Source of the DNA: an uncultured Pseudomonadales bacterium
Lineage (GTDB): Bacteria; Patescibacteriota; Microgenomatia; UBA1400; CAYNMC01
NCBI GenBank assembly: GCA_964414895.1
Contig: CAYPXO010000002.1
Location: forward strand, 35,211-99,210
Length of the DNA: 64,000 nucleotides
Direction of reading: 5' to 3'
The notes beneath the pieces were generated by a model. The model worked only from the letters and a program-made list of their open reading frames with translations, did no database searches and had not been told where the DNA came from. Made by a program: the position numbers and the translations under genes. Positions 8,197 to 60,291 of the stretch are shown here, piece after piece (position 1 is the first letter of the stretch; every line of letters starts with the position of its first letter).

Positions 8197-8294
8197 TCAT
8201 GGCTTACACCAGGAATCTATACGGATAAATCTATCTTTATAGATCCTGAATCCCCAGCACCATTCGGTGCGGGGCAGGCAAGTTCAGAATGACA
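8191..8294. repeat. Class I nested-palindrome (REPIN-like) element, copy A
   Basis: TGTCATTCATGG...CCAGGAATCTATAC...TATAGATCCTGAATC...GTTCAGAATGACA; fills the dgkA-mraY spacer. Confidence 0.7.
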
Positions 8295-8343
8295 AGGTAG
8301 TAACAAAATTCTAAATTGCCTTACCTACAGCTTAACTGCTATC

Positions 8344-8721
8344 TTACAGATTGTCTACTAAATGCGGAATGACAATCAACACTCCAACTAAGGCAGCGAA
8401 ACAAGCCAATAAAAAAACCGCTCCTGCTGCCATATTCCTTATTTGTCTTGTTTCCTTATATTCCAATTTTAATTTTTCATTTAAAAGATTGCAAATAGCC
8501 TCAATGGCAGAATTCAAAATTTCCGCTGACAAAACAAGAGCTATTAAAACAAAAACAATAAACCATTCAAAAACCTCAAAGCCCAAAATAAAACCGACCA
8601 AAATAATCCCTAAGGCAAAGCCAAGTTCTATTTTTAAATTTCTTTCTTTCTTAAATGCCTGGCAGATGCCTTCTATGGCAAAACTGAATGATTGCAGCAA
8701 ATTATATCTTTTATTTTTCAT
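8344..8721 (-). CDS. dgkA: Diacylglycerol/undecaprenol kinase (DgkA family)
   Basis: 125-aa, 3-TM protein with SFxxAxxG N-terminus and ELLNSAIE-type catalytic motif (AEILNSAIEAI). Confidence 0.75.
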   Translation of the reverse strand: MKNKRYNLLQSFSFAIEGICQAFKKERNLKIELGFALGIILVGFILGFEVFEWFIVFVLIALVLSAEILNSAIEAICNLLNEKLKLEYKETRQIRNMAAGAVFLLACFAALVGVLIVIPHLVDNL

Positions 8722-9827: not shown

Positions 9828-9962
9828 TTATTCTTCGAGCGGATCCCGAGCCTGCCTGCCGGCAGGCAGGTCTGTCAAGGGAGTAGTCGAGAAGTCTTCT
9901 CTAGTAGGGTTCTCGACTTTGCCCCGCACCGTCTGGTGCAGGGCTTCGCTCGAACAATAAAA
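9828..9962. repeat. Class II GC-rich TIR element, copy 1 (intergenic)
   Basis: TTATTCTTCGAGCG...CCTGCCTGCCGGCAGGCAGG...GTCGAGAAG/CTTCTCGAC...GCCCCGCACCgtctGGTGCAGGGC...CGCTCGAACAATAA; the ends are inverted repeats. Confidence 0.7.
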
Positions 9963-14797: not shown

Positions 14798-14902
14798 CAT
14801 AAAAATAAGCCAAGGGGTCACAGCGGGTGTGATCTTTCGCCTACCTGTCCCCTAGCAAATAGTTCTGGGGCGGCTCACGCCCGGTGTGAAAGAATTGGCA
14901 CA

Positions 14903-15778
14903 CTAAAATTCCCCTAAAAAGAAAATCTCCGGTTCGAGTTCTATCTTACAGTCCATCTTCACTTTTTTACAAACCAGCTTAATTAATTTTACAACTTGTT
15001 CGGCTTTACCTCCACCAACGTTGATAAAAAAATTAGCGTGTCTCTCACTTATTTTTACCCCTCCTATTTTCTTGCCTTTCAAACCTACTTTATCAATCAA
15101 ATAACCGGCCGATTTACCTTTAGGGTTTTTAAAAATACAGCCAGCTGATTTGCCTTTCGGCTGATTGCTTCTTTCCTTTAATGTTTCCTTTATTTTTCTC
15201 TTCAAAGTACTTTCATTCTCTTTGTTTAATTTAAAACTAGCGCTAAGAACTATCATCCCTTTTTTTCGTAAGCTCGACCAGTCATAAGAAAAATCCAAGT
15301 CCTTCTTTTTAAAAACTTTTCTTTCAAGATTTTTATTTAAAACTTCCACTTTCTCCAAACAGTCGGAAAAAAAGTGATCCTTCCAATGACTGTTATTATA
15401 AACTGCTCCACCAACTGTTCCCGGCAGGCCAGCGAAAAATTCCAAACCTCCTAAACCTCTATTCACCGTTTCTTCTACAATTCTATTCACCATCACTCCT
15501 CCTTCGCAATAGGCTTTCTCATTTTGAATTTTGAATTTTGAATTTTGAATTTTTATTACCAATCCCCTCACTCCCTTATCAGCTACCAATAAATTACTTC
15601 CCCCACCTAAAATATAAAAAGGTAATTTTTTGGCTTTTGCCCAGTTAACGGCTTTGACAATCTGCTGGCTGTTTCTAGCCTCAAAAAAATAATCGGCCGG
15701 CCCGCCAATACCAAAAGTAGTAAAAGGAGCCAAATCAATATCCTTTTTAATCTTGAATTTTAATCTTGAATTTTGCAT
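14903..15778 (-). CDS. murB: UDP-N-acetylenolpyruvoylglucosamine reductase MurB
   Basis: FAD-binding N-terminus FTTFGIGGPADYF...ILGGGSNLL; carries an in-frame (AATTTTG)4 array. Confidence 0.85.
   Translation of the reverse strand: MQNSRLKFKIKKDIDLAPFTTFGIGGPADYFFEARNSQQIVKAVNWAKAKKLPFYILGGGSNLLVADKGVRGLVIKIQNSKFKIQNEKAYCEGGVMVNRIVEETVNRGLGGLEFFAGLPGTVGGAVYNNSHWKDHFFSDCLEKVEVLNKNLERKVFKKKDLDFSYDWSSLRKKGMIVLSASFKLNKENESTLKRKIKETLKERSNQPKGKSAGCIFKNPKGKSAGYLIDKVGLKGKKIGGVKISERHANFFINVGGGKAEQVVKLIKLVCKKVKMDCKIELEPEIFFLGEF
15521..15554. repeat. Heptanucleotide tandem array (AATTTTG/CAAAATT)x4.5 inside murB
   Basis: attttgaattttgaattttgaattttgaattttt; translated in frame as KIQNSKFKIQN. Confidence 0.8.
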
Positions 15779-17230: not shown

Positions 17231-18145
17231 TCAACTTCTTAAACCAATAATAGAGGCAAATCTTCCCTCCACTTCTCCTTTCCTTAAAGCACGAAAGTGA
17301 GAAAAAAAACGCTTATTGCAAATCGTGCAAATCCCTGTATCTTCAATATTGCCTCTTTCTACACCAAAAGAAACAAGTTTGTCTGTTATAAAGGAAGCAA
17401 TATCTAAAGATTTAACGGGGATCCTTCGCGCGCCTGCAGCCAGGCAGGCAGGCTCAGGATGACGGTTTGATCTTAGTATGTACTGCTTCCATTCCGGCAA
17501 TTTCTCTTGAATATAATGGCTGTGGACAAAGCAACATTTCCTTGCTCCCGGCCCAATAACTACCTTAATGTTGACAGGTTGACAAGCAAATTTCTTCATC
17601 ATAATCAGCAAAGTTTCTAAAAAAATTTTCTCTACCGCCCCTCGCCAGCCAACATGAACAGCAGCAACCACTCGTTTCATAGGATCAAAAAACAAAAGAG
17701 GAAAACAATCAGCCGTTTTTACCATCAAAAAAATCCCCGGTTTATCACTAATCAAAGCGTCAACTTCAGAAATAATATTAGTTAAGTGGTTTCTTCTTCG
17801 AGCGAGTCTCGATTTTAATCGAGAGGAGTCGAGAAGCTCATCTGGAATATCTTGAAAAGTTCTTAACTTCTCCCTCTCCGCCTCTTTGGCGGATCGGGAA
17901 CCGCTCGAACAATAAAAAATCTTGTTTAAATCCTGATCATCTAAAACTCTAACCTTGCTTCCGTGAACCTGATCCATTTCAAAAAGAGTCTCTAAATCAA
18001 TTCCTAATTGTCTTGCCAATCTTTTTCTATTGCCTAAAACCTTTCCATCTTCCCCAAAACGAAGGTCAATATTTCCTGAAGCCTTATCAGAAATTCCACA
18101 AACAAGCTTTTCTTCTTTTTTAAAAATTTTAAAATTTTTAAGCAC
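17231..18145 (-). CDS. pgeF: Peptidoglycan editing factor PgeF/YfiH (DUF152) carrying two in-frame repeat-element insertions
   Basis: QVHGSKV...ADALISDKPGIFLMVKTADCFPLLF...AAVHVGWRG core motifs. 304 aa versus ~250 typical; the extra segments correspond exactly to class II element sequence. Confidence 0.7.
   Translation of the reverse strand: MLKNFKIFKKEEKLVCGISDKASGNIDLRFGEDGKVLGNRKRLARQLGIDLETLFEMDQVHGSKVRVLDDQDLNKIFYCSSGSRSAKEAEREKLRTFQDIPDELLDSSRLKSRLARRRNHLTNIISEVDALISDKPGIFLMVKTADCFPLLFFDPMKRVVAAVHVGWRGAVEKIFLETLLIMMKKFACQPVNIKVVIGPGARKCCFVHSHYIQEKLPEWKQYILRSNRHPEPACLAAGARRIPVKSLDIASFITDKLVSFGVERGNIEDTGICTICNKRFFSHFRALRKGEVEGRFASIIGLRS
17419..17465. repeat. Class II fragment (GATCC...GCCTGCCTGG.CAGGC) fused to a class I-like end (CTCAGGATGACGG), in frame in pgeF
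   Basis: ggatccttcgcgcgcctgcagccaggcaggcaggctcaggatgacgg; encodes RHPEPACLAAGARRIP. Confidence 0.6.
17791..17917. repeat. Class II GC-rich TIR element, copy 2, inserted in frame (126 bp, 42 codons) in pgeF
   Basis: TTCTTCTTCGAGCG...AGTCTCGATTTTAATCGAGAGG...CGCTCGAACAATAAAA; encodes FYCSSGSRSAKEAEREKLRTFQDIPDELLDSSRLKSRLARRR between the conserved VHG and ADAL motifs. Confidence 0.75.
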
Positions 18146-18893
18146 TTTTTTTAGTTAATCTTTCTTTCATAAGCTTATCGGCTATTCCTAATTCTTCTTT
18201 GGTATTAACACCATAAGCAACCAAGGGATCATCAATCTTAAAGATCTCCACTGAGAGATTGTTTTCTACCGCCAGCCTTGCTAAATCTGTTAAATAATAC
18301 TCACCACTGGGATTTTCTTTAATTTTAGGCAAAAATCTTCTTAAAAAAGAAAGTTTAAAAAGGTAAAGGCCAAGATTTAGTTCTTTTATTTTCTTTTGTT
18401 CTTTTGTGCAAAATCTCTCCTCGACAATTTCCTTAAATTTTCCTTTTTTATCCCTTAGTATTCGTCCATAGGCAAAATGTCTTGAAGGGATAACAGTTGC
18501 CACCGTCATTACCGCCTTTCTCTTTTGATGATCGTTAATTAACTTTTTTAAGGAATCAGGAGAATAAAAAGCACAATGATCACCATACATAACCAAAATG
18601 TCTTTTTCTTCGCTTTTCATTTTTTTGACGGCATCATAAACAGCAGCCCCGGTTCCCCACCTCTTTCCTTGTCTAACAAAAATAAGATTTTCTCCATTTA
18701 ATTTATTTTTAATTGAATCAACAGCAAAATTAACTACTATAAAAATGTCTTTTATTCCTACTTTTTTCAAGCTTTTTAACCCATAAGTTATCATTGGTTT
18801 GCCGGCAAGCTTCATTATCACTTTGTTTTTTCTCTGGCAATTTAGCCTTGTCCCTTTTCCTGCTGCCAGCACTACAGCGGCAAGCTTAACCAA
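18138..18893 (-). CDS. GlmU N-terminal-domain-like sugar-1-phosphate nucleotidyltransferase (start uncertain; TTG at 18893 proposed)
   Basis: VVLAAGKGTRL...KLAGKPMITYGL matches the GlmU pyrophosphorylase N-terminus; no LbH acetyltransferase domain. The upstream in-frame ORF to 19115 is class II element sequence. Confidence 0.6.
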   Translation of the reverse strand: MVKLAAVVLAAGKGTRLNCQRKNKVIMKLAGKPMITYGLKSLKKVGIKDIFIVVNFAVDSIKNKLNGENLIFVRQGKRWGTGAAVYDAVKKMKSEEKDILVMYGDHCAFYSPDSLKKLINDHQKRKAVMTVATVIPSRHFAYGRILRDKKGKFKEIVEERFCTKEQKKIKELNLGLYLFKLSFLRRFLPKIKENPSGEYYLTDLARLAVENNLSVEIFKIDDPLVAYGVNTKEELGIADKLMKERLTKKSA

Positions 18894-18934
18894 TTTTCTC
18901 TTTGAAAAATTGTCTTTTACAGGACTTACGCGCT

Positions 18935-19015
18935 TTATTCTTCGAGCGATCCCGGTGTAATACCGGGAGAGTCGAGAAGTTCTCGACTTCGCTGACGCTC
19001 CGCTCGAACAGTAAG
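18935..19015. repeat. Class II GC-rich TIR element, copy 3
   Basis: TTATTCTTCGAGCG-ATCCCGGTgtaatACCGGGA-GAGTCGAGAAGTTCTCGACTT-...CCGCTCGAACAGTAAG. Confidence 0.7.
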
Positions 19016-19045
19016 AAATACTGTGTAATTCCTGTTTCATATAAT

Positions 19046-20245
19046 TCATAAATTTCTTAAGGCCTTCTTGACTGCTTTGTGTTCTGACCAAGGATGTTCT
19101 TTTTCCCCAAAACACATTGACTGTTCGTGGCCCTTGCCAAAAAGAGTAACAATATCTCCTTTTTTAGCAAGCTTCCTAATAGCAAAATTTATTGCTTTTT
19201 GTCTATCTGCAATTTTACAAAGCTTTCTTTTATTTTTACATCCTGAAGCTATTTCTTCAATAATTTCCTTGACATTCTCAGTCCGTGGGTCCTCGGCCGT
19301 CAAAACCACCTTATCAGCCAATCGGCAAGCAATTTTCCCCATTGCTGGTCTTTTATAATGATCGCGCAAGCCAGCGCAACCAAAAATGGCAATTAACTTC
19401 CGATGAGAAAAAGTTCTTAAAGTTTTCAGAGCGTTCTTTAAAGCGTTAGGGGTATGAGCAAAATCAATAATCACCTTAAAATTCTTATCATAAACTTTCT
19501 CCATTCTTCCCTTAACTCCTTTGAATTGAGCAATAACCTTTCTAACAACAGGTTCTTTTACTTTAAGAATTTTAGCAACACTAATAGCGGCTAAACAATT
19601 AAGTCTGTTGTATTCTCCTGGCAAAGAAGTCTTAAAAGGAAACTTTTTTAAATTAAGATCACCTTTTTTTAAACCATAAGTAATAACTTTTCCCTTAGCG
19701 ATTTTTTTTAAATAGCCAAAAGACTTGTCTTCAATGTTTAAAACAGCAAACTTTGTCTTTTGAAATAATCGAGCCTTGGCTGACAAATAGTCTTGCCAAT
19801 TTCCATGATAATCTAAATGCTCGTCAGTCACATTTGTAACCACTCCTATATTAAAATTAACCCCAAGGAGACGGTGTTGATCCAAGCCATGGGAAGTTGT
19901 TTCTAAAATTATAAACTTAAATTTCCTATCGGCAATGCGGCGCAAAAGCTTCTGCAACTTACAAGAGTCTGGAGTAGTCACATGCAAGCCGGTGTCTAAA
20001 ACCTCCTCTCCAATTTTGGCACAAACACTGGTTATCAAAGCTACTCTTTTCCCTGCTTTTTTGAGAATTTCATAAATTAAAGTAGAAGTTGTTGTTTTCC
20101 CGTCTGTGCCAGTAACGCCAATAACAACCAAATTCTTAGCCGGATAGCGATAAAAAACAACCGCCAGAATAGAAATAGGGAGATGGTAAAAAGTATTAAC
20201 AAGCCAGTGAGGGATAAAATTTCGCAGAGTTTGTAAGAAAGACAT
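19046..20245 (-). CDS. murE: Mur ligase (MurE-like; MurD not excluded) lacking the usual N-terminal domain
   Basis: GVTGTDGKTTTSTL P-loop near the N-terminus, NVTDEHLDYHG and Y..AKARLF motifs; position between ftsI and murF/mraY. Confidence 0.65.
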   Translation of the reverse strand: MSFLQTLRNFIPHWLVNTFYHLPISILAVVFYRYPAKNLVVIGVTGTDGKTTTSTLIYEILKKAGKRVALITSVCAKIGEEVLDTGLHVTTPDSCKLQKLLRRIADRKFKFIILETTSHGLDQHRLLGVNFNIGVVTNVTDEHLDYHGNWQDYLSAKARLFQKTKFAVLNIEDKSFGYLKKIAKGKVITYGLKKGDLNLKKFPFKTSLPGEYNRLNCLAAISVAKILKVKEPVVRKVIAQFKGVKGRMEKVYDKNFKVIIDFAHTPNALKNALKTLRTFSHRKLIAIFGCAGLRDHYKRPAMGKIACRLADKVVLTAEDPRTENVKEIIEEIASGCKNKRKLCKIADRQKAINFAIRKLAKKGDIVTLFGKGHEQSMCFGEKEHPWSEHKAVKKALRNL

Positions 20246-20287: not shown

Positions 20288-20313
20288 TGTTTGCCTGCCT
20301 GCCGGCAGGCAAA
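20288..20313. repeat. Isolated perfect GC palindrome GTTTGCCTGCCTGCCGGCAGGCAAAC (class II core) between ftsI and the Mur ligase
   Basis: 26-bp perfect hairpin sharing the GCCTGCCGGCAGGC core. Confidence 0.7.
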
Positions 20314-20344
20314 CCTAAACCCATTTTCTGATTAACTTATTATA

Positions 20345-23288: not shown

Positions 23289-23362
23289 TGTCATTCCTGG
23301 CTCGACCAGGAATCTATACAAATAATTACTGTTATAGATTCCGCATCAAGTGCGGAATGACA
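23289..23362. repeat. Class I nested-palindrome (REPIN-like) element, copy B (mraZ-rsmH spacer)
   Basis: TGTCATTCCTGGctcgaCCAGGAATCTATACAaataattacTGTTATAGATTCCGCAtcaagTGCGGAATGACA. Confidence 0.75.
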
Positions 23363-34280: not shown

Positions 34281-34286
34281 AAAAAT

Positions 34287-34345
34287 ACCGGGCGGGTCAC
34301 GACCCGCCCCTACTGTAGGGGCGGCCGGTCGGGGGCCCGGCAACA
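34287..34345. repeat. GC-rich tandem hairpin island
   Basis: GGGCGGGTCacGACCCGCCC (9-bp stem), GCCCCTActgTAGGGGC (7-bp stem), GGCCGGTCGGGGGCCCGG. Confidence 0.6.
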
Positions 34346-34350
34346 ACACG

Positions 34351-35250
34351 TTATTCTCTAAACCTGCTTACCAACCATATTCCTGCAAAAACTAACTTCC
34401 GAACTACCCAAGGATATTTCTCACTGTAATGCTTCTTATAAAAAACTTTCATTGTTTTGTAAAAATTTCGTTTTGTTGACATTCTTATTTCTTCTGTCAA
34501 ATCTTTATTTTTTTTCTTATCGGGTAATTTTTCTCTTCCTGATTTTCTCTTCGAATGAATAATTTTTGTTTTCGGGTAATAAAAGATTCTAAAACCCAAC
34601 TTTTTAATCCGGTAACACCAATCAATGTCTTCTCCATAGATAAAAAATCTCTCATCTAAAAACCCTACTTTATCAATTATTGATTTTCTTATCATGAAAA
34701 AAGCACCACTACAAACATCAATTTGATGAGCTTTATCTAAATCCTTCCAGCCTTGGTGATAACCGGCAAAAAACCTTAAACTAGGGAAAAGCCTCTCTAA
34801 ACCTAAAAAATAACAAAAAGCGTTCCAGGGAGTCGGAAAACCGCGATGAGAAGCAGGGTCAATTTTGCCATTTGGCAACTCCACTCTGCAAGTAGCCCCG
34901 TCGGCTTTTGGATGATCTCCCATAAATTTGATCATTTTGCTCAAAGTTTCAGGAAAAACTTTTGTATCTGAATTAAGTAGTAAAACCAGTTCTCCCTTCA
35001 CTTTTAAAATTCCCTGGTTGTTGGCAGCGGCAAAACCAAAATTTTTCTTATTAACAATCAACTTCACCCATTTAAACTTACTTTTAATCAGCTGTACGGT
35101 TCCATCCTGCGAATGATTATCAACTACTATTGTCTCCACCCGAAAGCCCTCTTTCTCACAAACCTCAACTGCCTTCTTTAAAGAATCTAAAAGATTAATT
35201 AGTAAATCCTTGGTATTAAAACTGACAATGATAATAGAAAGATCAATCAT
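34351..35250 (-). CDS. Glycosyltransferase family 2
   Basis: SIIIVSFNTKDLL...VVDNHSQDGT DXD-type N-terminus. Confidence 0.8.
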   Translation of the reverse strand: MIDLSIIIVSFNTKDLLINLLDSLKKAVEVCEKEGFRVETIVVDNHSQDGTVQLIKSKFKWVKLIVNKKNFGFAAANNQGILKVKGELVLLLNSDTKVFPETLSKMIKFMGDHPKADGATCRVELPNGKIDPASHRGFPTPWNAFCYFLGLERLFPSLRFFAGYHQGWKDLDKAHQIDVCSGAFFMIRKSIIDKVGFLDERFFIYGEDIDWCYRIKKLGFRIFYYPKTKIIHSKRKSGREKLPDKKKNKDLTEEIRMSTKRNFYKTMKVFYKKHYSEKYPWVVRKLVFAGIWLVSRFRE

Positions 35251-36504: not shown

Positions 36505-37965
36505 TTATCTAAAATCACATCTTCGAAGGTCAACAATTGCAAAACTCTCCTGTTCTTCCAATAATAAGCATTGCTTCTTCAAATCTTTCAGCTCCTGATC
36601 CTTCTTAACCGTTACATAAAAACTTGCTCCTTTTTTTATCCTATCTTCAATATTGCCTCCAATCGGCCAGCCTTTTCTTTCGGTTTGATATAAAAAGGCT
36701 GTGTCTCCTCCATAAGGAGCAATTACCTTATCTTCCTCCTGGCTTAGCTTTTTTACTTGTTGGCCGGCAGCCACTATTTCCGGATGATTAATATTAAAAA
36801 AGTCTCTTACTTGATACCAACCAAAAGACTCCATAAACAAAAAGCAGCCAGCAGCCAGCAGCCAGCAGCCAAGGGAACTGAATATCTTTCGTGCTTCCTT
36901 TAACAAAAATAAAACCCCTCGAGCCAGAAAAATACAAACAACTGGAATGATTAAAATCTGATAATAGTCGTGGCGAACATTGCCAGTAGCTACTACTGCT
37001 AAATAAGCCAAACAGCTCAAAAACCAAAAATGAAAAAGGTAGCTTGACTTCTGGGAAGCTTTTCTTAAAAGACCAAAAGCCAAAAAAATCACCCCCCAAT
37101 AGCCCAAAATTAATTTAGCAAGCCTTTCGGCAAATAACCAATAAAACCAAGCTCCTTTAAAACGAATCTCATCACCGTTTAAAAGCCACATATTGGCGGG
37201 AATTCCTTCAGGGAACTGCTGAATCCAAAGCCGCCAGACAGCAAAAGGCAACAACCCAATAAATAAATAAATAAATAAGCCAATAAATAAATAAAGTTTT
37301 TTCTTAGATTGAAAAAACTTTTTAATAAAAATATATAAAACCGGTGGCAATATCAAAAAAAGAGCAAACGGTTTAAGAAGTAGAGCAATTATAAAAAAAA
37401 TAGAAGAAAGAAAGAAATTGAAAATTGAAAATTGAAAATTGAAAATTGAATTTGTTCCCTTTATAAAAAAATAAACAGAACCTAAACTCGTTGCTATCAT
37501 CATCGGCTCAGGCAAAATCACTCGGTTGTAATAAATGTTGTAAGGCAGAACTGCATAAAAAAAAGCTGTTATTAAAGCAAGAGGCAAACCAGCAATTTCA
37601 CCAACAATTAAAAAAAGGAAAATTATTGTTCCTAACGAAAAGAAAATTGACAATAATCTTCCTCCCGTCTCAAAACTAACAAATGAAAAAAGCTTGAAAA
37701 AAAGGCTGTGTAAAAAGGCAAAGATGGGAAACTCCACCATCCGGTATCCTTGAGGGTTCTCTTGTCCTGAAGCAATAGTGGATAAATCATCATACTTTGG
37801 TTTTAGAAGGTCAATTTCTTGATTGACAAAATTCCTTGCCACTGCCGCCGTATCTGCTTGACGCCAAGAATGCCAATCGGCCAAAGGAGCAGTTATCCTA
37901 TAAGTCCTTAAAATAAAAGCTAAAACCAAAATCAATAAAAGAAAAGCAAATTCTTTTTTAAACAT
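36505..37965 (-). CDS. GT-C fold membrane glycosyltransferase (GT39/GT83, ArnT/PMT-like) carrying three in-frame repeat arrays
   Basis: N-terminal WRQADTAAVARNF motif region, more than 10 TM helices; contains (GAAAATT)4.5, (CAGCCAG)3.7 and CCAATAAATAAATAA x2. Confidence 0.55.
   Translation of the reverse strand: MFKKEFAFLLLILVLAFILRTYRITAPLADWHSWRQADTAAVARNFVNQEIDLLKPKYDDLSTIASGQENPQGYRMVEFPIFAFLHSLFFKLFSFVSFETGGRLLSIFFSLGTIIFLFLIVGEIAGLPLALITAFFYAVLPYNIYYNRVILPEPMMIATSLGSVYFFIKGTNSIFNFQFSIFNFFLSSIFFIIALLLKPFALFLILPPVLYIFIKKFFQSKKKLYLFIGLFIYLFIGLLPFAVWRLWIQQFPEGIPANMWLLNGDEIRFKGAWFYWLFAERLAKLILGYWGVIFLAFGLLRKASQKSSYLFHFWFLSCLAYLAVVATGNVRHDYYQILIIPVVCIFLARGVLFLLKEARKIFSSLGCWLLAAGCFLFMESFGWYQVRDFFNINHPEIVAAGQQVKKLSQEEDKVIAPYGGDTAFLYQTERKGWPIGGNIEDRIKKGASFYVTVKKDQELKDLKKQCLLLEEQESFAIVDLRRCDFR
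36844..36873. repeat. Heptanucleotide tandem array (CAGCCAG)x3.7
   Basis: cagccagcagccagcagccagcagcc; in frame (WLLAAGCWLL). Confidence 0.75.
37255..37295. repeat. Tandem duplication CCAATAAATAAATAA(ATAAG) x2 with (AAAT)n
   Basis: ccaataaataaataaataagccaataaataaataaag; encodes the duplicated LFIYLFIG. Confidence 0.7.
37414..37453. repeat. Heptanucleotide tandem array (GAAAATT)x4.5
   Basis: gaaattgaaaattgaaaattgaaaattgaaaattgaattt; encodes FNFQFSIFNF in frame. Confidence 0.85.
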
Positions 37966-40518: not shown

Positions 40519-40594
40519 TGTCATTCCTGCGAAAGCAGGAATCTATAAAAATAAATATTATCTGTATAGATTCCTGATCAAATCAGGAATGACC
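40519..40594. repeat. Class I nested-palindrome (REPIN-like) element, copy C
   Basis: TGTCATTCCTGCgaaaGCAGGAATCTATAAAAataaatattatcTGTATAGATTCCTGATcaaATCAGGAATGACC. Confidence 0.75.
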
Positions 40595-41241: not shown

Positions 41242-42336
41242 TTAATTATCAGTAGTCTTCTGCAAAACCCTTATTGTCTTTTTGGCACATTTCTCCCAAG
41301 AGAATTTTTTTACTTGCTGCAAACCTTTTTTTATTAAATTATTCCTTTCCCTTTGCTTTGATTTTAACATCTTTGACAAACTTTTATAAATCGAATTATC
41401 AGAATAAGGGTTTTCAATATAAACCGCCGCCTCCCCTGCCACCTCAGGCAGGGAAGAAGTCTTGCTGGTTACAACCGGACAGCCGGCTGCCATTGCTTCA
41501 AGCACTGGTATGCCAAAGCCTTCATAGAGTGAAGGGTAAACAAAGCATAAGGCATTCTTTAATAAAGCTTGTTTTTCTTTTTCGCTGACAAAACCGGTAA
41601 AAATAACTTCTTTTTCTAAACCTAACTGTTTTACTTTATTAAATATCTCTTTGTAAAGCCAACCCTTCTTTCCAGCTATTACTAATTTAGTATTTAGGGA
41701 TAAGTATTTAGTATTTAGGGAAGCGAAAGCTTCTATAAGACGAGTGAGGTTTTTTCTGGGCTGGAGAGTGCCGAGGTAAAGAAGATAATTGCTAGCTGGT
41801 AGCTTTTTAAATTCATTCTTTATTCTTGATTCTTTATTCTTGATTCTTTTACTTAGTCCCGGATAAGTAACGGTAATTTTCTCCTCCGGATAATCATAAA
41901 AATGGATAATCTCCTTTTTAGTAAACTCTGAGATGGTAAAAATATGAGCCGCTTTTTTAATTGAATACCTTGTCCAGTTTTTTAGCTGCCAAAGATCGCT
42001 CTTTTTAAACTGCTCAGGAAAACGCCAGAAAGCTAAATCCATAATAGAAATCACCCTTGGGCAAGAAGAAAACCGAGGAGCATAATGACCCGGAGTAAAA
42101 AATAAATCCGGTTTAGGCCGCAAAAAGAATAATTCCAAAGGCAGCCGCCACTGCGTCCACCATAACCCCGGCCGCAAAACCTTATATCGCCACCAACCTG
42201 TCTCTTTAGGTAAATCATCTAAAAGTTTATCTTTCAAAAAAATTTTGAATTTTAAACTGCAATCCTGCCTGCCGGCAGGCAAGGTTTTAATTTTTAATTT
42301 TTCATTTTTAATTTGTCTATATATTTCCCACAACAA
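41242..42336 (-). CDS. Glycosyltransferase family 4, paralog a (tandem duplicate of 42515-43693)
   Basis: C-terminal half identical to paralog b (YLLYLGTLQPRKNL...EGFGIPVLEAMAAGCPVVTSKTSSLPEVAGEAAV). Confidence 0.75.
   Translation of the reverse strand: MLWEIYRQIKNEKLKIKTLPAGRQDCSLKFKIFLKDKLLDDLPKETGWWRYKVLRPGLWWTQWRLPLELFFLRPKPDLFFTPGHYAPRFSSCPRVISIMDLAFWRFPEQFKKSDLWQLKNWTRYSIKKAAHIFTISEFTKKEIIHFYDYPEEKITVTYPGLSKRIKNKESRIKNEFKKLPASNYLLYLGTLQPRKNLTRLIEAFASLNTKYLSLNTKLVIAGKKGWLYKEIFNKVKQLGLEKEVIFTGFVSEKEKQALLKNALCFVYPSLYEGFGIPVLEAMAAGCPVVTSKTSSLPEVAGEAAVYIENPYSDNSIYKSLSKMLKSKQRERNNLIKKGLQQVKKFSWEKCAKKTIRVLQKTTDN
41682..41721. repeat. 21-bp tandem duplication TAAGTATTTAGTATTTAGGGA x1.9
   Basis: Encodes the duplicated KYLSLNT in the GT4-a interdomain linker. 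Confidence 0.75.
41814..41848. repeat. Heptanucleotide tandem array (ATTCTTK)x5
   Basis: attctttattcttgattctttattcttgattcttt; encodes RIKNKESRIKNE. Confidence 0.75.
42263..42283. repeat. Class II core palindrome CCTGCCTGCCGGCAGGCAAGG inserted in frame near the GT4-a N-terminus
   Basis: Encodes LPAGRQDCS; paralog b has NCNA at the homologous position. Confidence 0.7.
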
Positions 42337-42416: not shown

Positions 42417-42449
42417 GTAGTTAGTAGTTAGTAGTTAGGGATCCTCTGT
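42417..42449. repeat. Heptanucleotide tandem array (TAGTAGT)x4.5, intergenic, abutting class I half-element D
   Basis: tagtagttagtagttagtagttagtagttaggg. Confidence 0.8.
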
Positions 42450-42455
42450 CATTCC

Positions 42456-42496
42456 TGGCTCCGACCAGGAATCTATACAAATAAATCTTATTACTT
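42456..42496. repeat. Class I half element (solo REP-like hairpin), copy D
   Basis: TGTCATTCCTGGctccgaCCAGGAATCTATACAAATAAATC with no right half. Confidence 0.65.
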
Positions 42497-43775: not shown

Positions 43776-44546
43776 TTATTTAATTCTCCCTTCTATTTTA
43801 ACAAAAAATATCTGCCGATAATAAGGCGGCTTATCCCAAAGCTTAAAAAAAGGAATCAAAAACAAAAAAATCTTTCTAAATAAAAAATCAACAAAAATAT
43901 TTTTTGTCATCCAACCCTTCATTAAAAAATTTCTCAAGCCTAAATTTTCATTACCCTGAATTTTAATTCCGACTTTCTTTTTTTCTCTTTTTGCTGCTAA
44001 TTTAATTAATTGAACTATTTCTTCTTTCTTTGGCAAACCATATTCCAAATGCTCTTTAAAAAAAGAAAAAGGCTGCTTAAAAACCTGTTGGTATCTTTTA
44101 TCTAATTTTTTATCTTGAATAAAACTTTTCTTTCCACAAGGAACAGCTATAAAAACCTCTCTTTTTGCCACCCGTAGAACTTCTCTTATCGCTTTTTCCC
44201 TTTTTGTCTTCTGCAAGTGTTCCAGAACATCAACACAAACAACAAAATCAAAACTATCTCTTTTAAAGGGTAGCTTTAAAACGCTTCCCTTTATCTGCTT
44301 TAACAAACCAAACTTCCTTCCTTCAAAATCCTCATCCAAACCAACAACCTCTTTTCCTAAATAAGGAGCAATCCCCAGCCACCCCGACCCCACTTCAAGA
44401 ATAGAAATTTCTTTGACACTTGACACTTGACACTTGACACTTCTTGCTATCGGCCAGTATCTAATCGCTACTTCTGGATGCCAACGAAAAAAATTGAAAA
44501 TTGAAAATTGAAAATTGAAAATTTTATTTACGATACTCATAAACAA
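43776..44546 (-). CDS. Class I SAM-dependent methyltransferase (type 11-like)
   Basis: ILEVGSGWLGIAPYLG motif I, DFVVCVDVLEHL motif; the N-terminus carries the (GAAAATT)4.5 and (GACACTT)4 arrays. Confidence 0.6.
   Translation of the reverse strand: MFMSIVNKIFNFQFSIFNFFRWHPEVAIRYWPIARSVKCQVSSVKEISILEVGSGWLGIAPYLGKEVVGLDEDFEGRKFGLLKQIKGSVLKLPFKRDSFDFVVCVDVLEHLQKTKREKAIREVLRVAKREVFIAVPCGKKSFIQDKKLDKRYQQVFKQPFSFFKEHLEYGLPKKEEIVQLIKLAAKREKKKVGIKIQGNENLGLRNFLMKGWMTKNIFVDFLFRKIFLFLIPFFKLWDKPPYYRQIFFVKIEGRIK
44413..44442. repeat. Heptanucleotide tandem array (GACACTT)x4
   Basis: ttgacacttgacacttgacacttgacactt. Confidence 0.8.
44487..44525. repeat. Heptanucleotide tandem array (GAAAATT)x4.5
   Basis: aaaattgaaaattgaaaattgaaaattgaaaatttt. 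Confidence 0.85.
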
Positions 44547-46011
44547 AACCGACTCCGGGAAAATCGACTGTTTGATTCAAGGAAAAACCACTATCACCCA
44601 ACCAGCCTGTTGCCTTTTGGTCTGGATCAGTCATTCCCGAAAGATACTGAAAGAGAAAAACCTGCTTCTTACTTGGAACTATTTCCTTTAAAAACAAAGA
44701 AATCTTCTCTCCTTTCTCAAAAATTCCCCTCGCTTCAAGGTTTCTTCTTTGATAATAACTCCAAGGCCCAAATGGAGAAGAAAACTCAAAAAGAACTAAA
44801 CTCTTGTCGCCACTTGCCTTATCTTCCACCCAAGAGACTGCCTGACGCCATTGTTCTCTTTGAAACTGAGAGTCAAAATAATATCTCCCCAAACTAAAAA
44901 AATTAATCGTCAAAACCAAACCTACTGCCAACTTCTGCCATTTTTTTTCTAAAGTAAAAACACCCATTGATAACAACAAATAAAAGAAAGGCAAAGTTAA
45001 AAGCAACCTTTTTGGGGCAATAACCGGCACAAAAAAAGATAACAAAAAAGCCCCAAAAACCGGCACTAAAAAAAAGCTTAAAACAATAAAAGCCTTTCTT
45101 CTCTCTTTTCTCCAGCTTCTTATAACAAGAAAAGAGAAGAAAAGAAATAATAAAAAGGCTAAAAAACCATAAAAAAATTTATTTTCAAAACTGGTATTTC
45201 CTATCCAAAATTTAGTTAATACTAAAGGTACTGCTTTTAATAAAGGAGTTGCCACACTAACTTTCCAGAGAGGAAAAATGGCTGCCCAACCTCGACCAAT
45301 CGCTAATTGTTTAAAAAACATCGGCAGCCAAGGCAAAAAAACAAAAAAGCTCAAAGCCAAATTCACCAGCCAATTTGATAATTTATCTTTGTAGAAAAGT
45401 AAAATAATTAAAAATTGAGTAATAAAAATGAAAGGAAAAAAATATAGACTATATAGTCCAGCGATATTGACTAATACAAAAGGGGCAAAAATTCTATAAA
45501 TATGAAAGGAACTGTCCCTAATAAAAAACTTCAAAAAGAAATAAAAAGAGGCAGTTGCTAAAAAACAAGATAACATATAGGGTCTGAATTCTTGGGAATA
45601 GTAAATATGAAAAGGAGAAGTTGCTAAAAAAAGACTAGAGAGCAAAGCGATTTTCTTATTAGTCAATTTCTTAGCAAACAAAAAAACAAACCAAATCGAT
45701 CCCAATCCTAAAAAGACCGGTAATAATCTTGACCACCATTCAGTTTGTGATATCTTTAACCAAAGCCAAGCTAAATAATGGAAAAGCGGCGGGTGAAAGT
45801 CGGCTGGGATTCGCCAAACCTGCCAAAAAGAAACCTTTGATTCCAAAACTTGAATTGCCTCATCAAGCCAAAAGGACTGGTTAATAGCAATTAGGCGCAA
45901 AAATAAAGCCAGAAACAGGATCAAATAAAACACTTCTACTTTTTTTATTGTTCGAGCAAATCTCGATCCGGCTGCGCCGGAGAGAGAGCAGTCAAGAACT
46001 ACTGCCAACAA
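44524..46011 (-). CDS. GT-C fold membrane glycosyltransferase (PMT_2/ArnT-like); the true start probably lies downstream of the ORF-track ATG
   Basis: FWLDEAIQVLE...FHPPLFHYLAW motif region, about 12 TM helices; the first ~20 codons are class II element sequence. Confidence 0.55.
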   Translation of the reverse strand: MLAVVLDCSLSGAAGSRFARTIKKVEVFYLILFLALFLRLIAINQSFWLDEAIQVLESKVSFWQVWRIPADFHPPLFHYLAWLWLKISQTEWWSRLLPVFLGLGSIWFVFLFAKKLTNKKIALLSSLFLATSPFHIYYSQEFRPYMLSCFLATASFYFFLKFFIRDSSFHIYRIFAPFVLVNIAGLYSLYFFPFIFITQFLIILLFYKDKLSNWLVNLALSFFVFLPWLPMFFKQLAIGRGWAAIFPLWKVSVATPLLKAVPLVLTKFWIGNTSFENKFFYGFLAFLLFLFFSFLVIRSWRKERRKAFIVLSFFLVPVFGAFLLSFFVPVIAPKRLLLTLPFFYLLLSMGVFTLEKKWQKLAVGLVLTINFFSLGRYYFDSQFQREQWRQAVSWVEDKASGDKSLVLFEFSSPFGPWSYYQRRNLEARGIFEKGEKISLFLKEIVPSKKQVFLFQYLSGMTDPDQKATGWLGDSGFSLNQTVDFPGVGFVYEYRK

Positions 46012-46065
46012 AACTTCTCGACTTCGCCCCGCACCGAATGGTGCAGGCTTCGCTCGAAGAATAAG
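45946..46065. repeat. Class II GC-rich TIR element, copy 4
   Basis: TTATTGTTCGAGC...CTTCTCGACTTC-GCCCCGCACCgaatGGTGCAGGC-TTCGCTCGAAGAATAAG. Confidence 0.7.
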
Positions 46066-54751: not shown

Positions 54752-54854
54752 TGTCATTCTCGACCTGAAAGCGAAAGCGCTTCAAGATCGGGAATCTATA
54801 AAAATATTAAAGCTGAATTATTTGTATAGATTCTGAATCAAGTTCAGAATGACA
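54752..54854. repeat. Class I nested-palindrome (REPIN-like) element, copy E
   Basis: TGTCATTCTCGACC...GGGAATCTATAAAAATATTAAAGCTGAATTATTTGTATAGATTCTGAATCAAGTTCAGAATGACA. Confidence 0.75.
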
Positions 54855-56883: not shown

Positions 56884-58662
56884 CTAGGAAGTTTTTTTAA
56901 AGATCAAAAAAGCAAGGCAAGAAAAAGCAGCAATGGAAAGCAAGTCGGCAAATAAACGCAACTTTGTCTCTCCAAATTTCAACTTAACTTGAAATTCTCC
57001 TGCCGGTGCAGAAAACAAAACCAAACCTTTGGATTTTTTAAAGTCCTTTAGATTTTCTTTTACTTCTTCCGTTAATTCTCTTCCATCAACAAACAACCGC
57101 CAGCCAGGATAATAATAGTTGTGAATCAAAATTTCTGATTTTTGTCTGCAAGCAAGATTAAAAGAAATTAAATTGCTTTTTTGTAAAAGTTTTTCCACTC
57201 GGCAATCACCCTGGTTAATTTCAACTTTTTGCTCTGGCGGTAGCTGGTATGGTTTTTTTCTTGCCCAGCGAGGAATATATTCATTCCAACCGCTGCCTAC
57301 CCAATAATAAGTCTTAAAATAGTTATCCGGATAGTCAATGGTGTCATTAATACGCAAATGATTGCGATTACCATAAAAAGCAAGAATTAAAAGCATCATA
57401 GAAGCAAAAATTAAAAACTTTCTCTCTTTTAAATTAGCAATCAGCCAACCAGACAAAAAAGCGGCTGTAAAAACGGAAAGAGCCAAAAAGCGCCAAGGAG
57501 TATCTACCTTTTGTAGTGGAGAAAAAAGAACCCAAATCGGCTTGGAAATCTCAAGCATTAAAAAGATTGAAAGAAAAAAATTAAAGAGAAGAATAATAAT
57601 AAGGCTTAAGTTTTTTCGCTTATTTTTCTTTTTTATTATAAAGTATATATAGTATACAGGAGTACACTTAATAATAAGAAAAATGCTTAGAAAAACTGCT
57701 AGCCATTGGGCAATTCCAATTCTTAAGGTCAGATCATTACCAAAGCCCGGCGCTCCATAGCCCCAAGGCGAATAGAGGAGTTTTTTAAAAGAAACAAATT
57801 GGTCATAATTGGCAGAAACAATCTCTGTGTAGTAAGTGTAAGCAGCTTCCCAAACGGCAGGGATTAAATAAAAACTACAAATTCCCACCGCCAGCAAAAT
57901 GGCAACCAGCCACCGTTTTATTATCCTTTTTTTCTTTTTTGAATAACTAACTAGCCAAAAAGAGAATAAAAACCAAAGAGGAAAGAAAATAACCAAAGTT
58001 ATCAAATGAGAAAGAATCAAACCAGCCAAAGCAAAAACAAGAGCGACAAAATTTTTCTTTGTCGATTTTTTGGAAAACCGAAAGACAAAAAGAAAAACTA
58101 AAGGAACAAAAGCAAAGCCAACTGCTTCCCCTAGAGAGGCAGTCACAAAAATCTTGACAAAGCGATAAGGAGCCCAAGACCAAAGAATGCTAGAGACAAA
58201 AGCGGCCCAACTGTTCTTAAAAAGCTCTCTTGCCAAAAAATACATTCCCAAAGCAGAAGTAAAATAGGAAAAAACAATAACCAGCTTAACCGATTCGGCC
58301 AAATTAAAACCAGCAAAATGAAAGCCTTCGGCCAGCCAGTAAGGCAAAGGATAGGCAAAAATAAAAACCGGGTAACCTCTAGTGCCGGAAAACTGGCCGG
58401 CCCAGCGAGGAGGAAACTGGCCTTCTTTTAAAATACGATCAAATTCATAAAGCCTGGCCAGGTGTGACTGTCCATCATGGGAAGTATAAAATTTCGGCCC
58501 CCAAAGATCTTTAAGAGCAAAAAGAGATATAACAAAAATTGCAACAATCAACAATAAATTTATTCCTTTTTTCACTTTTTTAAGGTATAGATAAAACAAA
58601 TAATAATTATTGTTCGAGCCCTGCCTGCCGGACGGGCAGGCAGGCAGGCGTGTCGAGAACAT
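56884..58662 (-). CDS. Large polytopic membrane protein, GT-C-like (YfhO/ArnT-like); the N-terminus reads through a class II element
   Basis: More than 12 TM helices, HDGQSHLARLYEFDR motif; the first ~20 codons (MFSTRLPACPSGRQGS) are element sequence. Confidence 0.4.
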   Translation of the reverse strand: MFSTRLPACPSGRQGSNNNYYLFYLYLKKVKKGINLLLIVAIFVISLFALKDLWGPKFYTSHDGQSHLARLYEFDRILKEGQFPPRWAGQFSGTRGYPVFIFAYPLPYWLAEGFHFAGFNLAESVKLVIVFSYFTSALGMYFLARELFKNSWAAFVSSILWSWAPYRFVKIFVTASLGEAVGFAFVPLVFLFVFRFSKKSTKKNFVALVFALAGLILSHLITLVIFFPLWFLFSFWLVSYSKKKKRIIKRWLVAILLAVGICSFYLIPAVWEAAYTYYTEIVSANYDQFVSFKKLLYSPWGYGAPGFGNDLTLRIGIAQWLAVFLSIFLIIKCTPVYYIYFIIKKKNKRKNLSLIIILLFNFFLSIFLMLEISKPIWVLFSPLQKVDTPWRFLALSVFTAAFLSGWLIANLKERKFLIFASMMLLILAFYGNRNHLRINDTIDYPDNYFKTYYWVGSGWNEYIPRWARKKPYQLPPEQKVEINQGDCRVEKLLQKSNLISFNLACRQKSEILIHNYYYPGWRLFVDGRELTEEVKENLKDFKKSKGLVLFSAPAGEFQVKLKFGETKLRLFADLLSIAAFSCLAFLIFKKTS

Positions 58663-58696
58663 CGGAATTTGAACTTCCCGATTTCACTCGAAGAGT
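58608..58696. repeat. Class II GC-rich TIR element, copy 5
   Basis: TTATTGTTCGAGCC-CTGCCTGCCGGACGGGCAGGCAGG-CGTGTCGAGAAC...CACTCGAAGAGTAAAA. Confidence 0.7.
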
Positions 58697-58715
58697 AAAA
58701 TTCTATTAGTCTTGT

Positions 58716-60180: not shown

Positions 60181-60291
60181 CGTCATTCTGAGTCCCACAT
60201 TTTGCGGGACGAAGAATCCCCTTCGGAATTATTCAGACTTCTAGGGAGATCCTTCGCTCCGCTCAGGATGACATAGAATTTCAGAATGACA
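60181..60291. repeat. Class I-family element, copy F (variant internal hairpins)
   Basis: CGTCATTCTGAGtcccacattttGCGGGACGAAGAATCCCCttcgg...CTCAGGATGACAtagaatttCAGAATGACA; overlaps the stop of 60241-61896. Confidence 0.65.

What the first reader, a model, noticed from the sequence alone, without database searches (positions are those of the whole stretch)
17231..18145. GC-rich palindromic elements inserted in frame inside an intact conserved gene (pgeF)
Two element insertions leave the pgeF reading frame intact. The first is a complete 126-bp class II element at 17791-17917 (exactly 42 codons, bounded by TTCTTCGAGCG / CGCTCGAACAATAA). The second is a 48-bp GC palindrome fragment at 17419-17465. 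The conserved PgeF motifs (VHG...ADAL...TADC...VHVGWRG) lie on either side, and the protein is about 50 aa longer than the family norm. The insert sequences are the same GC-rich elements that occur intergenically at 9828, 18935, 45946 and 58608. Repeat-borne peptide segments grafted into proteins are well documented for Rickettsia palindromic elements; in this lineage it appears to be an independent instance.
Basis: partly seen in the sequence, partly recalled or inferred. Interest (0 to 1): 0.8.

Follow-up and report, generated by a model that had tools for sequence, protein, structure and literature searches.

The report
Palindromic repeat DNA translated inside PgeF
An intact cell-wall editing gene (pgeF) of an uncultivated ultra-small bacterium carries two in-frame pieces of GC-rich palindromic repeat DNA, and the same repeat family turns out to be spread over many uncultivated phyla and to sit repeatedly inside housekeeping proteins, much like the palindromic elements of Rickettsia.

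Summary
ORF 17231-18145 (-) is an intact 304-aa PgeF/YfiH. Its 52 homologues are 212-267 aa, and it has two query-only segments. Insert 1 (17791-17915) is a complete copy of a repeat with paired ends TTATTSTTCGAGC/GCTCGAASAATAA; four more copies lie between genes in the window. Insert 2 (17417-17461) is a solo GC hairpin that matches 17 of 18 nt of a hairpin inside copy 9828. The PgeF core models confidently and both inserts have low pLDDT.

The family is not private to this lineage. A pattern scan hit at least 116 genome stretches: Patescibacteria, Omnitrophota, WOR-3, Stahlbacteria and others. The element is modular: conserved TCGAG boxes flank variable hairpins. It occurs as solo half-units, inverted pairs and a circularly permuted form.

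Twenty of 83 full copies lie in frame inside genes such as PurA, GatA, RecJ, TsaD, NadE and MVD, and 15 of these 20 use one frame ('YSSS...ARTI'). No out-of-frame, gene-splitting copies were seen, so the copies are most likely translated and not spliced out.

It works like Rickettsia palindromic elements with a REP/BIME-like layout. The mobilising enzyme is unknown. At one orthologous MVD codon the boxes are far better conserved than neutral host sites, and this is unexplained.

The parts
17231..18145 (-). pgeF / yfiH ORF, 304 aa, intact, carrying both inserts
17791..17915 (-). Insert 1: a complete class II palindromic element of 125 nt. It is read in frame as (F)YCSSGSRSAKEAEREKLRTFQDIPDELLDSSRLKSRLARRR(N), residues 78-118. 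GC is 0.46 and there are 3 box mismatches, making it the most decayed copy in the window.
17903..17915 (-). Outer box TTATTGTTCGAGC, 0 mismatches (one closing-stem arm)
17791..17803 (+). Outer box TTCTTCTTCGAGC, 1 mismatch (the other closing-stem arm)
17807..17824 (.). Variable hairpin A (TCTCGAT-TTTA-ATCGAGA)
17828..17867 (.). Central boxes GTCGAGAAG (17828-17836) and a degenerate partner GTTCTTAAC (17859-17867; consensus GTTCTCGAC), separated by a 22-nt AT-rich loop
17871..17899 (.). Variable hairpin B (CCGCC-TCTTT-GGCGG core), related to a hairpin of copy 45945 through a compensated change
   Evidence: (I11)
17417..17461 (-). Insert 2: a solo GC hairpin module of 45 nt, GC 0.71, read as HPEPACLAAGARRIP (residues 229-243). 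It matches 17 of 18 nt of ATCCCGAGCCTGCCTGCC in hairpin A of copy 9828.
   Evidence: (I24)
9828..9960 (+). Intergenic class II copy of 133 nt with all four boxes perfect. It carries the CCTGCCTGCCGGCAGGCAGG hairpin.
18935..19014 (-). Class II copy of 80 nt lying between the murE-like stop (19046) and the GlmU-N-like domain. It is in frame and stop-free ('YCSSGASAKSRTSRLSRYYTGIARRI').
45945..46064 (+). Intergenic class II copy of 120 nt
58607..58698 (+). Intergenic class II copy of 92 nt carrying the CCTGCC-type hairpin
20293..20314 (.). Solo CCTGCCTGCCGGCAGGCA palindrome (the same module as insert 2)
42263..42284 (.). Solo CCTGCCTGCCGGCAGGCA palindrome

Best explanation
Two pieces of non-coding, GC-rich palindromic repeat DNA became inserted into variable loops of pgeF: a full two-unit 'class II' element and a solo hairpin module. 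They are now translated as 42 and 15 extra residues that hang off an otherwise normal PgeF fold.

The element belongs to a widespread non-autonomous repeat family. Its basic unit is about 35-50 nt: box STTCTCGAC, then a variable spacer or hairpin, then box GCTCGAASAATAA. Units occur alone or as inverted pairs, either tail-to-tail (as in this window) or head-to-head (a circular permutation of the same sequence). Other palindromic modules nest in their loops.

Copies arise throughout the genome. Inside genes, only copies that are a multiple of three in length, stop-free, in a tolerated hydrophilic frame and in a permissive surface loop survive selection. Shown here: repeat origin, in-frame state, absence from homologues, family distribution, frame bias and recurrent hits in one permissive loop.

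Inferred, not shown: that the inserts are translated and PgeF stays active, and that spread depends on a trans-acting enzyme recognising the TCGAG boxes in folded DNA. That enzyme is unidentified.
For: Repeat origin:
- Paired ends and central boxes are far above chance.
- The five copies align with conserved boxes and variable hairpins.
- All five fold as a closing stem plus 2-3 hairpins, with z from -3.4 to -6.6.
- Insert 2 shares 17 of 18 nt with a hairpin of copy 9828.

In-frame, intact host:
- Homologues are 212-267 aa, and the two query-only gaps coincide with the inserts.
- The invariant His/Cys/His and other motifs are kept.
- The AF2 model has mean pLDDT 85, with the inserts at 53-60 and 49.
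- The model matches solved YfiH/PgeF structures at target-normalised TM 0.74-0.83.
- The sequence match to PDB entries splits exactly at insert 1.

Family behaviour:
- At least 116 genome stretches were hit against about 17 expected by chance on my own estimate.
- 20 of 83 full copies lie in frame in long ORFs, and Pfam domains span both sides in 10 tested genes.
- No out-of-frame, gene-splitting copies were found.
- 15 of 20 use frame 'YSSS', although that frame is open in only 39% of intergenic copies, which implies an expected share of about 17%.
- Intergenic copies show no significant orientation bias relative to transcription, 13 against 8.
- One MVD loop carries inserts in about 23 of 120 homologues, from several repeat classes and at two different class II positions.
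- Length differences between orthologous copies are multiples of three.
Against: - No transcript or peptide data show that the inserts are translated or that this PgeF is active.
- NCBIfam PgeF scores 127.6 bits, below its 141.15 cutoff.
- Insert 1 lies only 16 residues after the conserved H61.
- No target-site duplication, autonomous parent or associated enzyme was found.
- No empty site is available, because every window protein tested is a singleton at 90% identity.
- Boxes at an orthologous MVD codon are 42-44 of 44 identical, while host third-codon positions are 55-57% identical. A purely selfish element decaying in place does not predict this.
Confidence: 0.8

Rival explanations
1. The elements are host-functional nucleic-acid or protein modules kept by selection, for example mRNA or DNA structures or flexible linkers, and are not merely tolerated selfish DNA. 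Alternatively, their boxes are sites of ongoing site-specific recombination that swaps hairpin 'cassettes' in place.
For: - At one orthologous MVD codon three lineages (76-78% aa identity, third-codon-position identity 0.55-0.57) keep 42-44 of 44 box positions.
- Two of those lineages share a 52-nt unit with one mismatch, while the modules between boxes differ.
- The boxes are conserved across phyla.
- Modules recur in different combinations, and a permuted form exists.
- Synteny breakpoints between two 90-94% identical genomes fall at a box.
Against: - Most homologues of PgeF and MVD lack any insert.
- Decayed copies exist: P0056 and the pgeF copy itself.
- There is no significant orientation bias relative to transcription.
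- No Rfam family matches.
- Concerted evolution among repeat copies could mimic constraint.
Confidence: 0.15
2. pgeF here is a recently inactivated pseudogene that happens still to be open. The inserts destroyed its function.
For: - The NCBIfam PgeF score is below the curated cutoff.
- A 42-aa insert lies between the catalytic His and Cys, and no expression data exist.
Against: - 304 codons remain open in a 36% GC genome. My estimate of the chance of this for random sequence of that composition is about 3e-10.
- All invariant family residues are retained.
- The inserted element has itself decayed (GC 0.46 against 0.53-0.57; 3 box mismatches) while the ORF stayed open, which implies selection after insertion.
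- The same family sits in frame in essential genes elsewhere, including GatA, TsaD, an aminoacyl-tRNA synthetase and PurA.
Confidence: 0.08
3. The inserts are removed before or during protein synthesis, by an intron-like or bulge-helix-bulge-like excision, translational bypassing, or an intein-like step, so the mature PgeF is of normal length.
For: The closing stem brings the two insert boundaries together. GC-rich mobile clusters are bypassed in some yeast mitochondria (my own knowledge). Patescibacteria are rich in introns (abstract listed).
Against: - All intragenic copies seen are stop-free and keep the frame, which excision would not require.
- The strong frame bias argues for selection at the peptide level.
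- Both orientations occur in genes.
- No Rfam ribozyme or intron model matches.
- The segments are far too short for an intein.
Confidence: 0.04
4. The insert is an assembly or binning artefact, a chimeric join through repeats.
For: Repeats can mislead assemblers, and the source is a MAG.
Against: - A second assembler (Logan contigs) recovers the identical 304-aa ORF.
- The flanks on both sides belong to one gene in one frame.
- The same phenomenon is seen in dozens of independent assemblies.
Confidence: 0.01

Closest known systems
Rickettsia palindromic elements (RPE; Ogata et al. 2000/2002, as summarised in PMC10969869 and PMC3184786)
   Same: Both are short (about 100-150 bp) palindromic, non-autonomous repeats found between genes and in frame inside unrelated housekeeping genes. 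Both add peptide segments judged compatible with the protein fold. The mobilising mechanism is unknown for both.
   Different: The host phyla differ: Patescibacteria, Omnitrophota, WOR-3 and others, not Rickettsia. No NCBIfam RPE-domain model appeared among the hits. The architecture here is modular boxes plus exchangeable hairpins, with solo halves and a permuted form. Box sequences are conserved across phyla.
REP / BIME / REPIN elements of Proteobacteria
   Same: Both have a small unit containing a hairpin. Both occur as singlets and as inverted pairs in head-to-head and tail-to-tail arrangements with variable linkers, form mosaics, and nest with other elements.
   Different: In REPs the palindrome itself is conserved and the elements are extragenic and species-specific. 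Here the flanking boxes are conserved, the hairpin varies, about a quarter of full copies are intragenic, and the boxes are shared across phyla. No RAYT association was tested.
Bacterial MITEs with in-frame ORF fusions (ERIC, BOX, QMITE1 of Coxiella, Anabaena MITEs; PMC10969869)
   Same: Both have terminal inverted repeats, small size, multiple copies and occasional in-frame fusions.
   Different: No consistent target-site duplication and no parent IS with the same ends were found. Intragenomic copies share only the boxes; mean column identity in A2 is 59%.
Mobile GC clusters / 'byp' elements of yeast mitochondria
   Same: Both are GC-rich hairpin elements invading AT-rich genomes, including coding regions (my own knowledge).
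   Different: Those are bypassed by the ribosome or lie outside frames. Here the copies are stop-free and in frame, which points to read-through translation.

Membership tests
PgeF / YfiH (host gene) | Match to Pfam PF02578 above the gathering score | tested here: met
   173.8 bits against a 22.9 cutoff, in two stretches split by insert 1
PgeF / YfiH (host gene) | NCBIfam equivalog TIGR00726 above the curated cutoff | tested here: not met
   127.6 bits against a 141.15 cutoff. The shortfall is plausibly due to the inserts and divergence.
PgeF / YfiH (host gene) | Conserved His...Cys...His residues and the YfiH fold | tested here: met
   H61, C147 and H164 are invariant in A1. The AF2 model matches PDB YfiH/PgeF chains at TMt 0.74-0.83, E as low as 3e-21.
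Rickettsia palindromic elements (RPE) | Palindromic repeat present both intergenically and in frame within ORFs | tested here: met
Rickettsia palindromic elements (RPE) | Sequence or peptide similarity to the RPE-1 to RPE-10 families | tested here: inconclusive
   No RPE-domain model was among NCBIfam hits at E<=1 for 10 insert-bearing proteins. I did not verify that the RPE models are in this release, and no Rickettsia DNA was compared.
Rickettsia palindromic elements (RPE) | Occurrence in Rickettsia / Rickettsiales | tested here: not met
   Record titles of the 116 loci name Patescibacteria, Omnitrophota, WOR-3 and others, and no Rickettsiales.
MITE (IS-derived) | Terminal inverted repeats, size under 300 bp, multiple copies | tested here: met
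MITE (IS-derived) | Target-site duplication flanking the element | tested here: inconclusive
   Flanks of 78 copies show no direct repeat. The conserved TA just inside each end could be a TA duplication, but the lengths of in-frame copies (mod 3 = 2 or 0, never 1) do not fit that rule.
MITE (IS-derived) | Autonomous IS with the same ends | tested here: inconclusive
   None was seen among unpaired ends in 788 kb of loci. Collections cannot be scanned with long gaps.
REP / REPIN / BIME | Singlets plus inverted doublets in both arrangements, with mosaic nesting | tested here: met
   94 solo units, 42 tail-to-tail, 15 head-to-head, 6 tandem; nesting
REP / REPIN / BIME | The conserved part is the palindrome itself, and the location is extragenic | tested here: not met
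   Hairpins vary while the boxes are conserved. 20 of 83 copies are intragenic.
REP / REPIN / BIME | Associated RAYT (Y1 transposase) gene | not tested
   Whole genomes were not available with these tools.
Integron attC site | R''/R' core sites RYYYAAC ... GTTRRRY | tested here: not met
   By inspection, CTCGAAC and GTTCGAG each break the consensus at two positions (sequences). The elements lie inside ORFs, not in cassette arrays.
Known structured RNA, ribozyme or intron (Rfam 15) | Match to a covariance model | tested here: not met
   0 hits at gathering score in the window. Only chance-level hits at E<=10 or E<=1 over the elements.

The most novel reading that the evidence does not exclude
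The class II elements may be more than decaying selfish DNA. They could form a cross-phylum cassette-like system in which four conserved TCGAG-containing boxes are maintained at the nucleotide level even inside coding genes, either by selection or by an unidentified structure-specific recombinase. Hairpin modules between the boxes would then be exchanged in multiples of three nucleotides. That would make the elements an active engine that remodels surface loops of housekeeping proteins in Patescibacteria and neighbouring uncultivated phyla.
Probability: 0.2. Interest if true: 0.85.

Novelty: new variant of a known kind. Interest (0 to 1): 0.62.

Why it matters
In-frame palindromic repeats have been treated mainly as a Rickettsia curiosity. 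A 2024 review only says it is 'conceivable' that the same happens in other prokaryotes (PMC10969869).

This work shows a second, unrelated and much more widely distributed family doing the same thing in ultra-small uncultivated bacteria. It repeatedly hits the same permissive loops of essential enzymes.

There are three consequences:
- Many 'lineage-specific insertions' in proteins of these bacteria may be repeat-derived.
- Gene callers and family cutoffs are affected. PgeF here falls below its NCBIfam cutoff, and some predicted starts lie inside elements.
- The conserved boxes give a concrete handle for finding the enzyme that moves such elements, which is still unknown even for RPEs.

I found no description of this family in the held literature. 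That is not proof that it is unpublished.

Tried and rejected
- Rfam scans of the window and of the elements gave nothing above chance, so a known RNA, ribozyme or intron was rejected.
- A viral-contig scan with the element pattern gave 2 hits. That is about the chance level by my own estimate, so there is no sign of phage carriage.
- A profile search with 15 inserted peptides (A7) against 5.8 billion proteins found 249 candidates and none at E<=10. The profile is too short for database-size E-values, so proteome-wide prevalence could not be counted this way.
- AF2 on the insert-deleted PgeF without an alignment gave pLDDT 37 and is uninformative.
- The search for 'empty' copies of the outer palindrome that surrounds some intergenic copies found that all 7 copies were filled, so exact insertion boundaries were not obtained.
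- In-silico deletion of elements restored an ORF in 6 cases, but I judged these to be artefacts of removing the element's terminal TAA; only the first listed case was examined in detail.
- The apparent covariation of the two S positions within a unit (C..G 114, G..C 86) is one asymmetric master sequence read on either strand. It is not evidence of base pairing.
- The organism could not be named. Exact look-ups gave no names, and every window protein tested is a singleton cluster.
- Two attempts to fetch the Ogata 2002 paper failed.
- attC, intein, Xer/dif-like and RuvC-consensus resemblances were considered by inspection only and are not claimed.

Full report
**1. What is at the coordinates**

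The minus strand of 17231-18145 is one open frame of 304 codons. It matches Pfam Cu-oxidase_4 (the PgeF/YfiH family) at E=5e-51, in two stretches. A search of 5.8 billion proteins returned 52 homologues of 212-267 aa. The only 304-aa hit is the protein itself, and the next best is 46-47% identical.

In an alignment with 16 homologues the query has two private segments. One is about residues 76-121, and the other is residues 229-243 (HPEPACLAAGARRIP). All invariant family columns are present, including H61, D129, C147, H164, G166 and H283. The window is 36% GC; insert 2 is 71% GC and insert 1 is 46% GC.

**2. The inserts are repeat DNA**

The 13-mer TTATTSTTCGAGC occurs as inward-facing pairs at five places: 9828/9948, 17791/17903, 18935/19002, 45945/46052 and 58607/58686. 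That is 14 matches at <=2 mismatches against 4.06 expected, and no shuffle reached 14. An internal 9-mer GTCGAGAAS occurs 7 times against 0.25 expected, always inside these elements.

The five copies align with conserved ends and a conserved central palindrome, but with unrelated GC-rich hairpins in between. Each folds as a closing stem plus two or three hairpins, better than all 200 shuffles (z from -3.4 to -6.6).

Insert 1 is such a copy, 125 nt from end to end. It runs from the third base of codon F77 to the first base of N119.

Insert 2 is not a full element. It shares ATCC(T/C)GAGCCTGCCTGCC (17 of 18 nt) with hairpin A of copy 9828. The same CCTGCCTGCCGGCAGGCAGG palindrome stands alone at 20293 and 42263 and inside copy 58607.

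The other four full copies lie between co-directional genes. Copy 18935 lies between the murE-like stop and the GlmU-N-like domain, which starts at residue 77-80 of ORF 18138..19115. It is itself in frame and stop-free.

**3. The host protein looks intact**

An AlphaFold2 model built on the 17-sequence alignment has mean pLDDT 85. Insert 1 is at 53-60 and insert 2 at about 49, between high-confidence strands. The model matches solved YfiH/PgeF structures with target-normalised TM 0.74-0.83. A sequence search of the PDB splits the match exactly at insert 1: an 11-residue loop of B. licheniformis YfiH corresponds to 52 residues here.

The pgeF copy is the most decayed in the window, with three box mismatches and the lowest GC. 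The 304-codon frame has nevertheless stayed open in an AT-rich genome. This argues that selection continued after insertion.

An independent Logan assembly encodes the same protein. A no-alignment model of the insert-deleted protein was uninformative.

**4. The family is widespread and modular**

My estimate of chance is about 17.

By record title the loci divide as follows:

| Label in record title | Loci |
|---|---|
| Patescibacteria lineages | 49 |
| Omnitrophota | 15 |
| 'Uncultured Gammaproteobacteria/Pseudomonadales' TPA MAGs | 26 |
| Stahlbacteria | 5 |
| WOR-3 | 4 |
| Auribacterota | 2 |
| Actinomycetota MAG | 2 |
| Elusimicrobia, Woesearchaeota, Nitrospira, Marinobacter | 1 each |
| Unclassified | 9 |

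The 'Gammaproteobacteria' labels are doubtful. One such contig encodes an MVD 66% identical to a Levyibacteria one and shares outer repeat layers with Roizmanbacteria. Viral contigs gave only chance-level hits. No Rfam family matches.

Across 83 full copies, the two S positions of the closing stem are C..C or G..G in 71 cases. This is a conserved mismatch that makes the two strands distinguishable.

The basic unit is: box STTCTCGAC, a spacer or hairpin of 11-51 nt, then box GCTCGAASAATAA. Among 215 units I counted 94 solo, 42 tail-to-tail pairs (the window's form), 15 head-to-head pairs and 6 tandem. The head-to-head pair is an exact circular permutation of the tail-to-tail form.

The same hairpin modules recur in different genomes and positions. 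Intergenic copies often sit at the centre of larger palindromes. A 'class I' element (GTCATTCC...GGAATGAC) is nested in the apical loop of a class II copy in one MVD gene.

**5. In-frame insertion is a general habit of the family**

Twenty of 83 full copies lie in stop-free ORFs extending at least 40 codons on both sides. Ten tested hosts are conserved genes with Pfam domains on both sides:

- PurA, with two copies
- GatA-type amidase
- RecJ
- TsaD
- a MurF-like ligase
- a DegT-FemAB fusion, with three copies
- two NadE
- two MVD

Computational deletion of the other copies did not reveal out-of-frame split genes.

Fifteen of the 20 are read as (x)YSSS[ED]...ESRS...SSR...ARTI or ...RSNN. Three more, including both window copies, use the equivalent frame of the other strand (YCSS or YGSS). 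In 56 intergenic copies all six frames are open at similar rates (21-45%), so the expected share of the favoured frame is about 17%. The bias therefore reflects selection on the encoded peptide (Ser/Arg/Glu-rich and hydrophilic) and not on stop-codon content.

Intergenic copies between tandem genes show no significant orientation preference, 13 against 8. Together these results favour translation of tolerated inserts over excision.

**6. A permissive-loop hot spot and an unexplained conservation**

Among the 120 best MVD homologues, the loop between TTTVEF and HLDRIR is 37 residues in most. It is 15-40 residues longer in about 23. The extra sequence comes from several different repeat classes. 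Class II occupies two distinct positions, and there are decayed copies such as P0056.

At one of those positions three lineages carry the element at the same codon. Host proteins are 76-78% identical and third codon positions 55-57% identical. Yet 42-44 of 44 box positions are identical, and two lineages share a 52-nt unit with one mismatch. The modules between the boxes differ, and length differences are multiples of three (101 against 89 nt at this codon; 113 against 89 nt for the pair at the other class II position).

Simple decay of a resident selfish copy does not predict this pattern. The options are constraint on the DNA or RNA, concerted evolution or cassette exchange at the boxes, or repeated insertion at one codon. 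I could not separate them. Synteny breakpoints at a box between two 90-94% identical genomes are a single anecdote pointing the same way.

**7. Comparison with known systems**

Functionally the closest analogue is the Rickettsia palindromic element. RPEs are repeats of about 105-150 bp found in frame in many unrelated genes, with fold-compatible positions and an unknown mobilisation mechanism (PMC10969869; PMC3184786).

Membership in the RPE families is not supported: the hosts differ, and no NCBIfam RPE-domain hit appeared, although that similarity test is inconclusive. Architecturally the solo, inverted-pair and mosaic organisation resembles REP/BIME/REPIN. However, here the boxes and not the palindrome are conserved, a quarter of full copies are intragenic, and the boxes are shared across phyla.

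Classical MITE criteria are only partly met. TIRs are present, but no clear target duplication or parent IS was found. I found no paper in the held library describing such elements in Patescibacteria.

**8. Verdict**

The single locus is a new example of a known phenomenon. The family behind it is unusual in three ways: its cross-phylum distribution, its modular and permuted build, and the conservation of its boxes inside genes. That lifts it to a new variant of the kind and leaves a testable open question about how it moves and why its boxes persist.

Noticed in passing
window 23290-23361, 40520-40593, 42448-42487 (half), 54753-54853, 60182-60290; related 8240-8375: A second palindromic repeat family ('class I') has the same four-way layout: closing stem GTCATTCC/GGAATGAC, a hairpin, central GGAATCTATA...TATAGATTCC, and a second hairpin. 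In locus L122 a class I copy is nested in the apical loop of a class II copy inside an MVD gene.
   Followed up: partly
window 18935-19014 within ORF 18138..19115 (-): A class II copy is in frame and stop-free upstream of a GlmU N-terminal-type domain that starts at residue 77-80. An ATG lies 7 nt after the upstream gene's stop, and a TTG lies just before the domain. The element is therefore either an N-terminal extension or a 5' leader, and gene callers may choose the wrong start.
   Followed up: partly
window 44524..46011 (-) and 56884..58662 (-): The longest-ORF start codons of these two genes fall inside class II copies 45945 and 58607. This suggests repeat-induced misplacement of start codons.
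   Followed up: no
loci L058, L006, L073, L025 and others ('uncultured Gammaproteobacteria' TPA MAGs): These contigs carry CPR-type genes: an MVD 66% identical to a Levyibacteria protein, and outer repeat layers shared with Roizmanbacteria. The NCBI organism label therefore looks wrong.
   Followed up: partly
proteins P0055-P0063, P0077, P0078, P0086, P0091, P0103, P0110, P0111, P0120, P0155 (MVD homologues): The same MVD loop carries peptides typical of other GC-rich palindromic repeat classes: 'VIAS..KQSH..PRND', 'SLRGAKRRSNL..DCHA..ARND', 'RHSG..QNL..DSGQARMT', 'PPLIRGG..SPPDKGELEG' and 'ILNEVKDL..SPQND'. The loop is a multi-family insertion hot spot.
   Followed up: partly
L095:1604-3154 (MurF-like) and L056:4450-5418 (RluD-like): Besides the class II insert, these proteins contain further repeat-like segments: 'CHCEEERRSNLTRKRLPHQSADWFAMT' and 'SSRPPSRDPEGKEAGFRVKPGMTDD'.
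   Followed up: no
L111 126-1208 versus L053: Two genomes that are 90-94% identical differ by a rearrangement. Its breakpoints coincide with box GCTCGAAC of class II units, and an 81-nt direct repeat ending in a unit flanks a 1-kb gene segment.
   Followed up: partly
window 37393-37453, 44483-44529, 46726-46786, 40345-40373, 44413-44441, 15516-15553: Short tandem heptamer runs, (TTGAAAA)n, (TTGACAC)n and (TTTTGAA)n, recur at several places in the window.
   Followed up: no
window 41421-41688 and 42685-42952: A 268-nt direct repeat at 98% identity, 1264 nt apart, lies within two adjacent ORFs that share the peptide [27 protein letters not shown], a motif I recognise as glycosyltransferase-like. 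This looks like a recent tandem gene duplication or gene conversion.
   Followed up: no
window 14813-14904 and 34281-34361: Two GC-rich, apparently non-coding segments have no Rfam match. The 64-kb window also has no tRNA genes.
   Followed up: no
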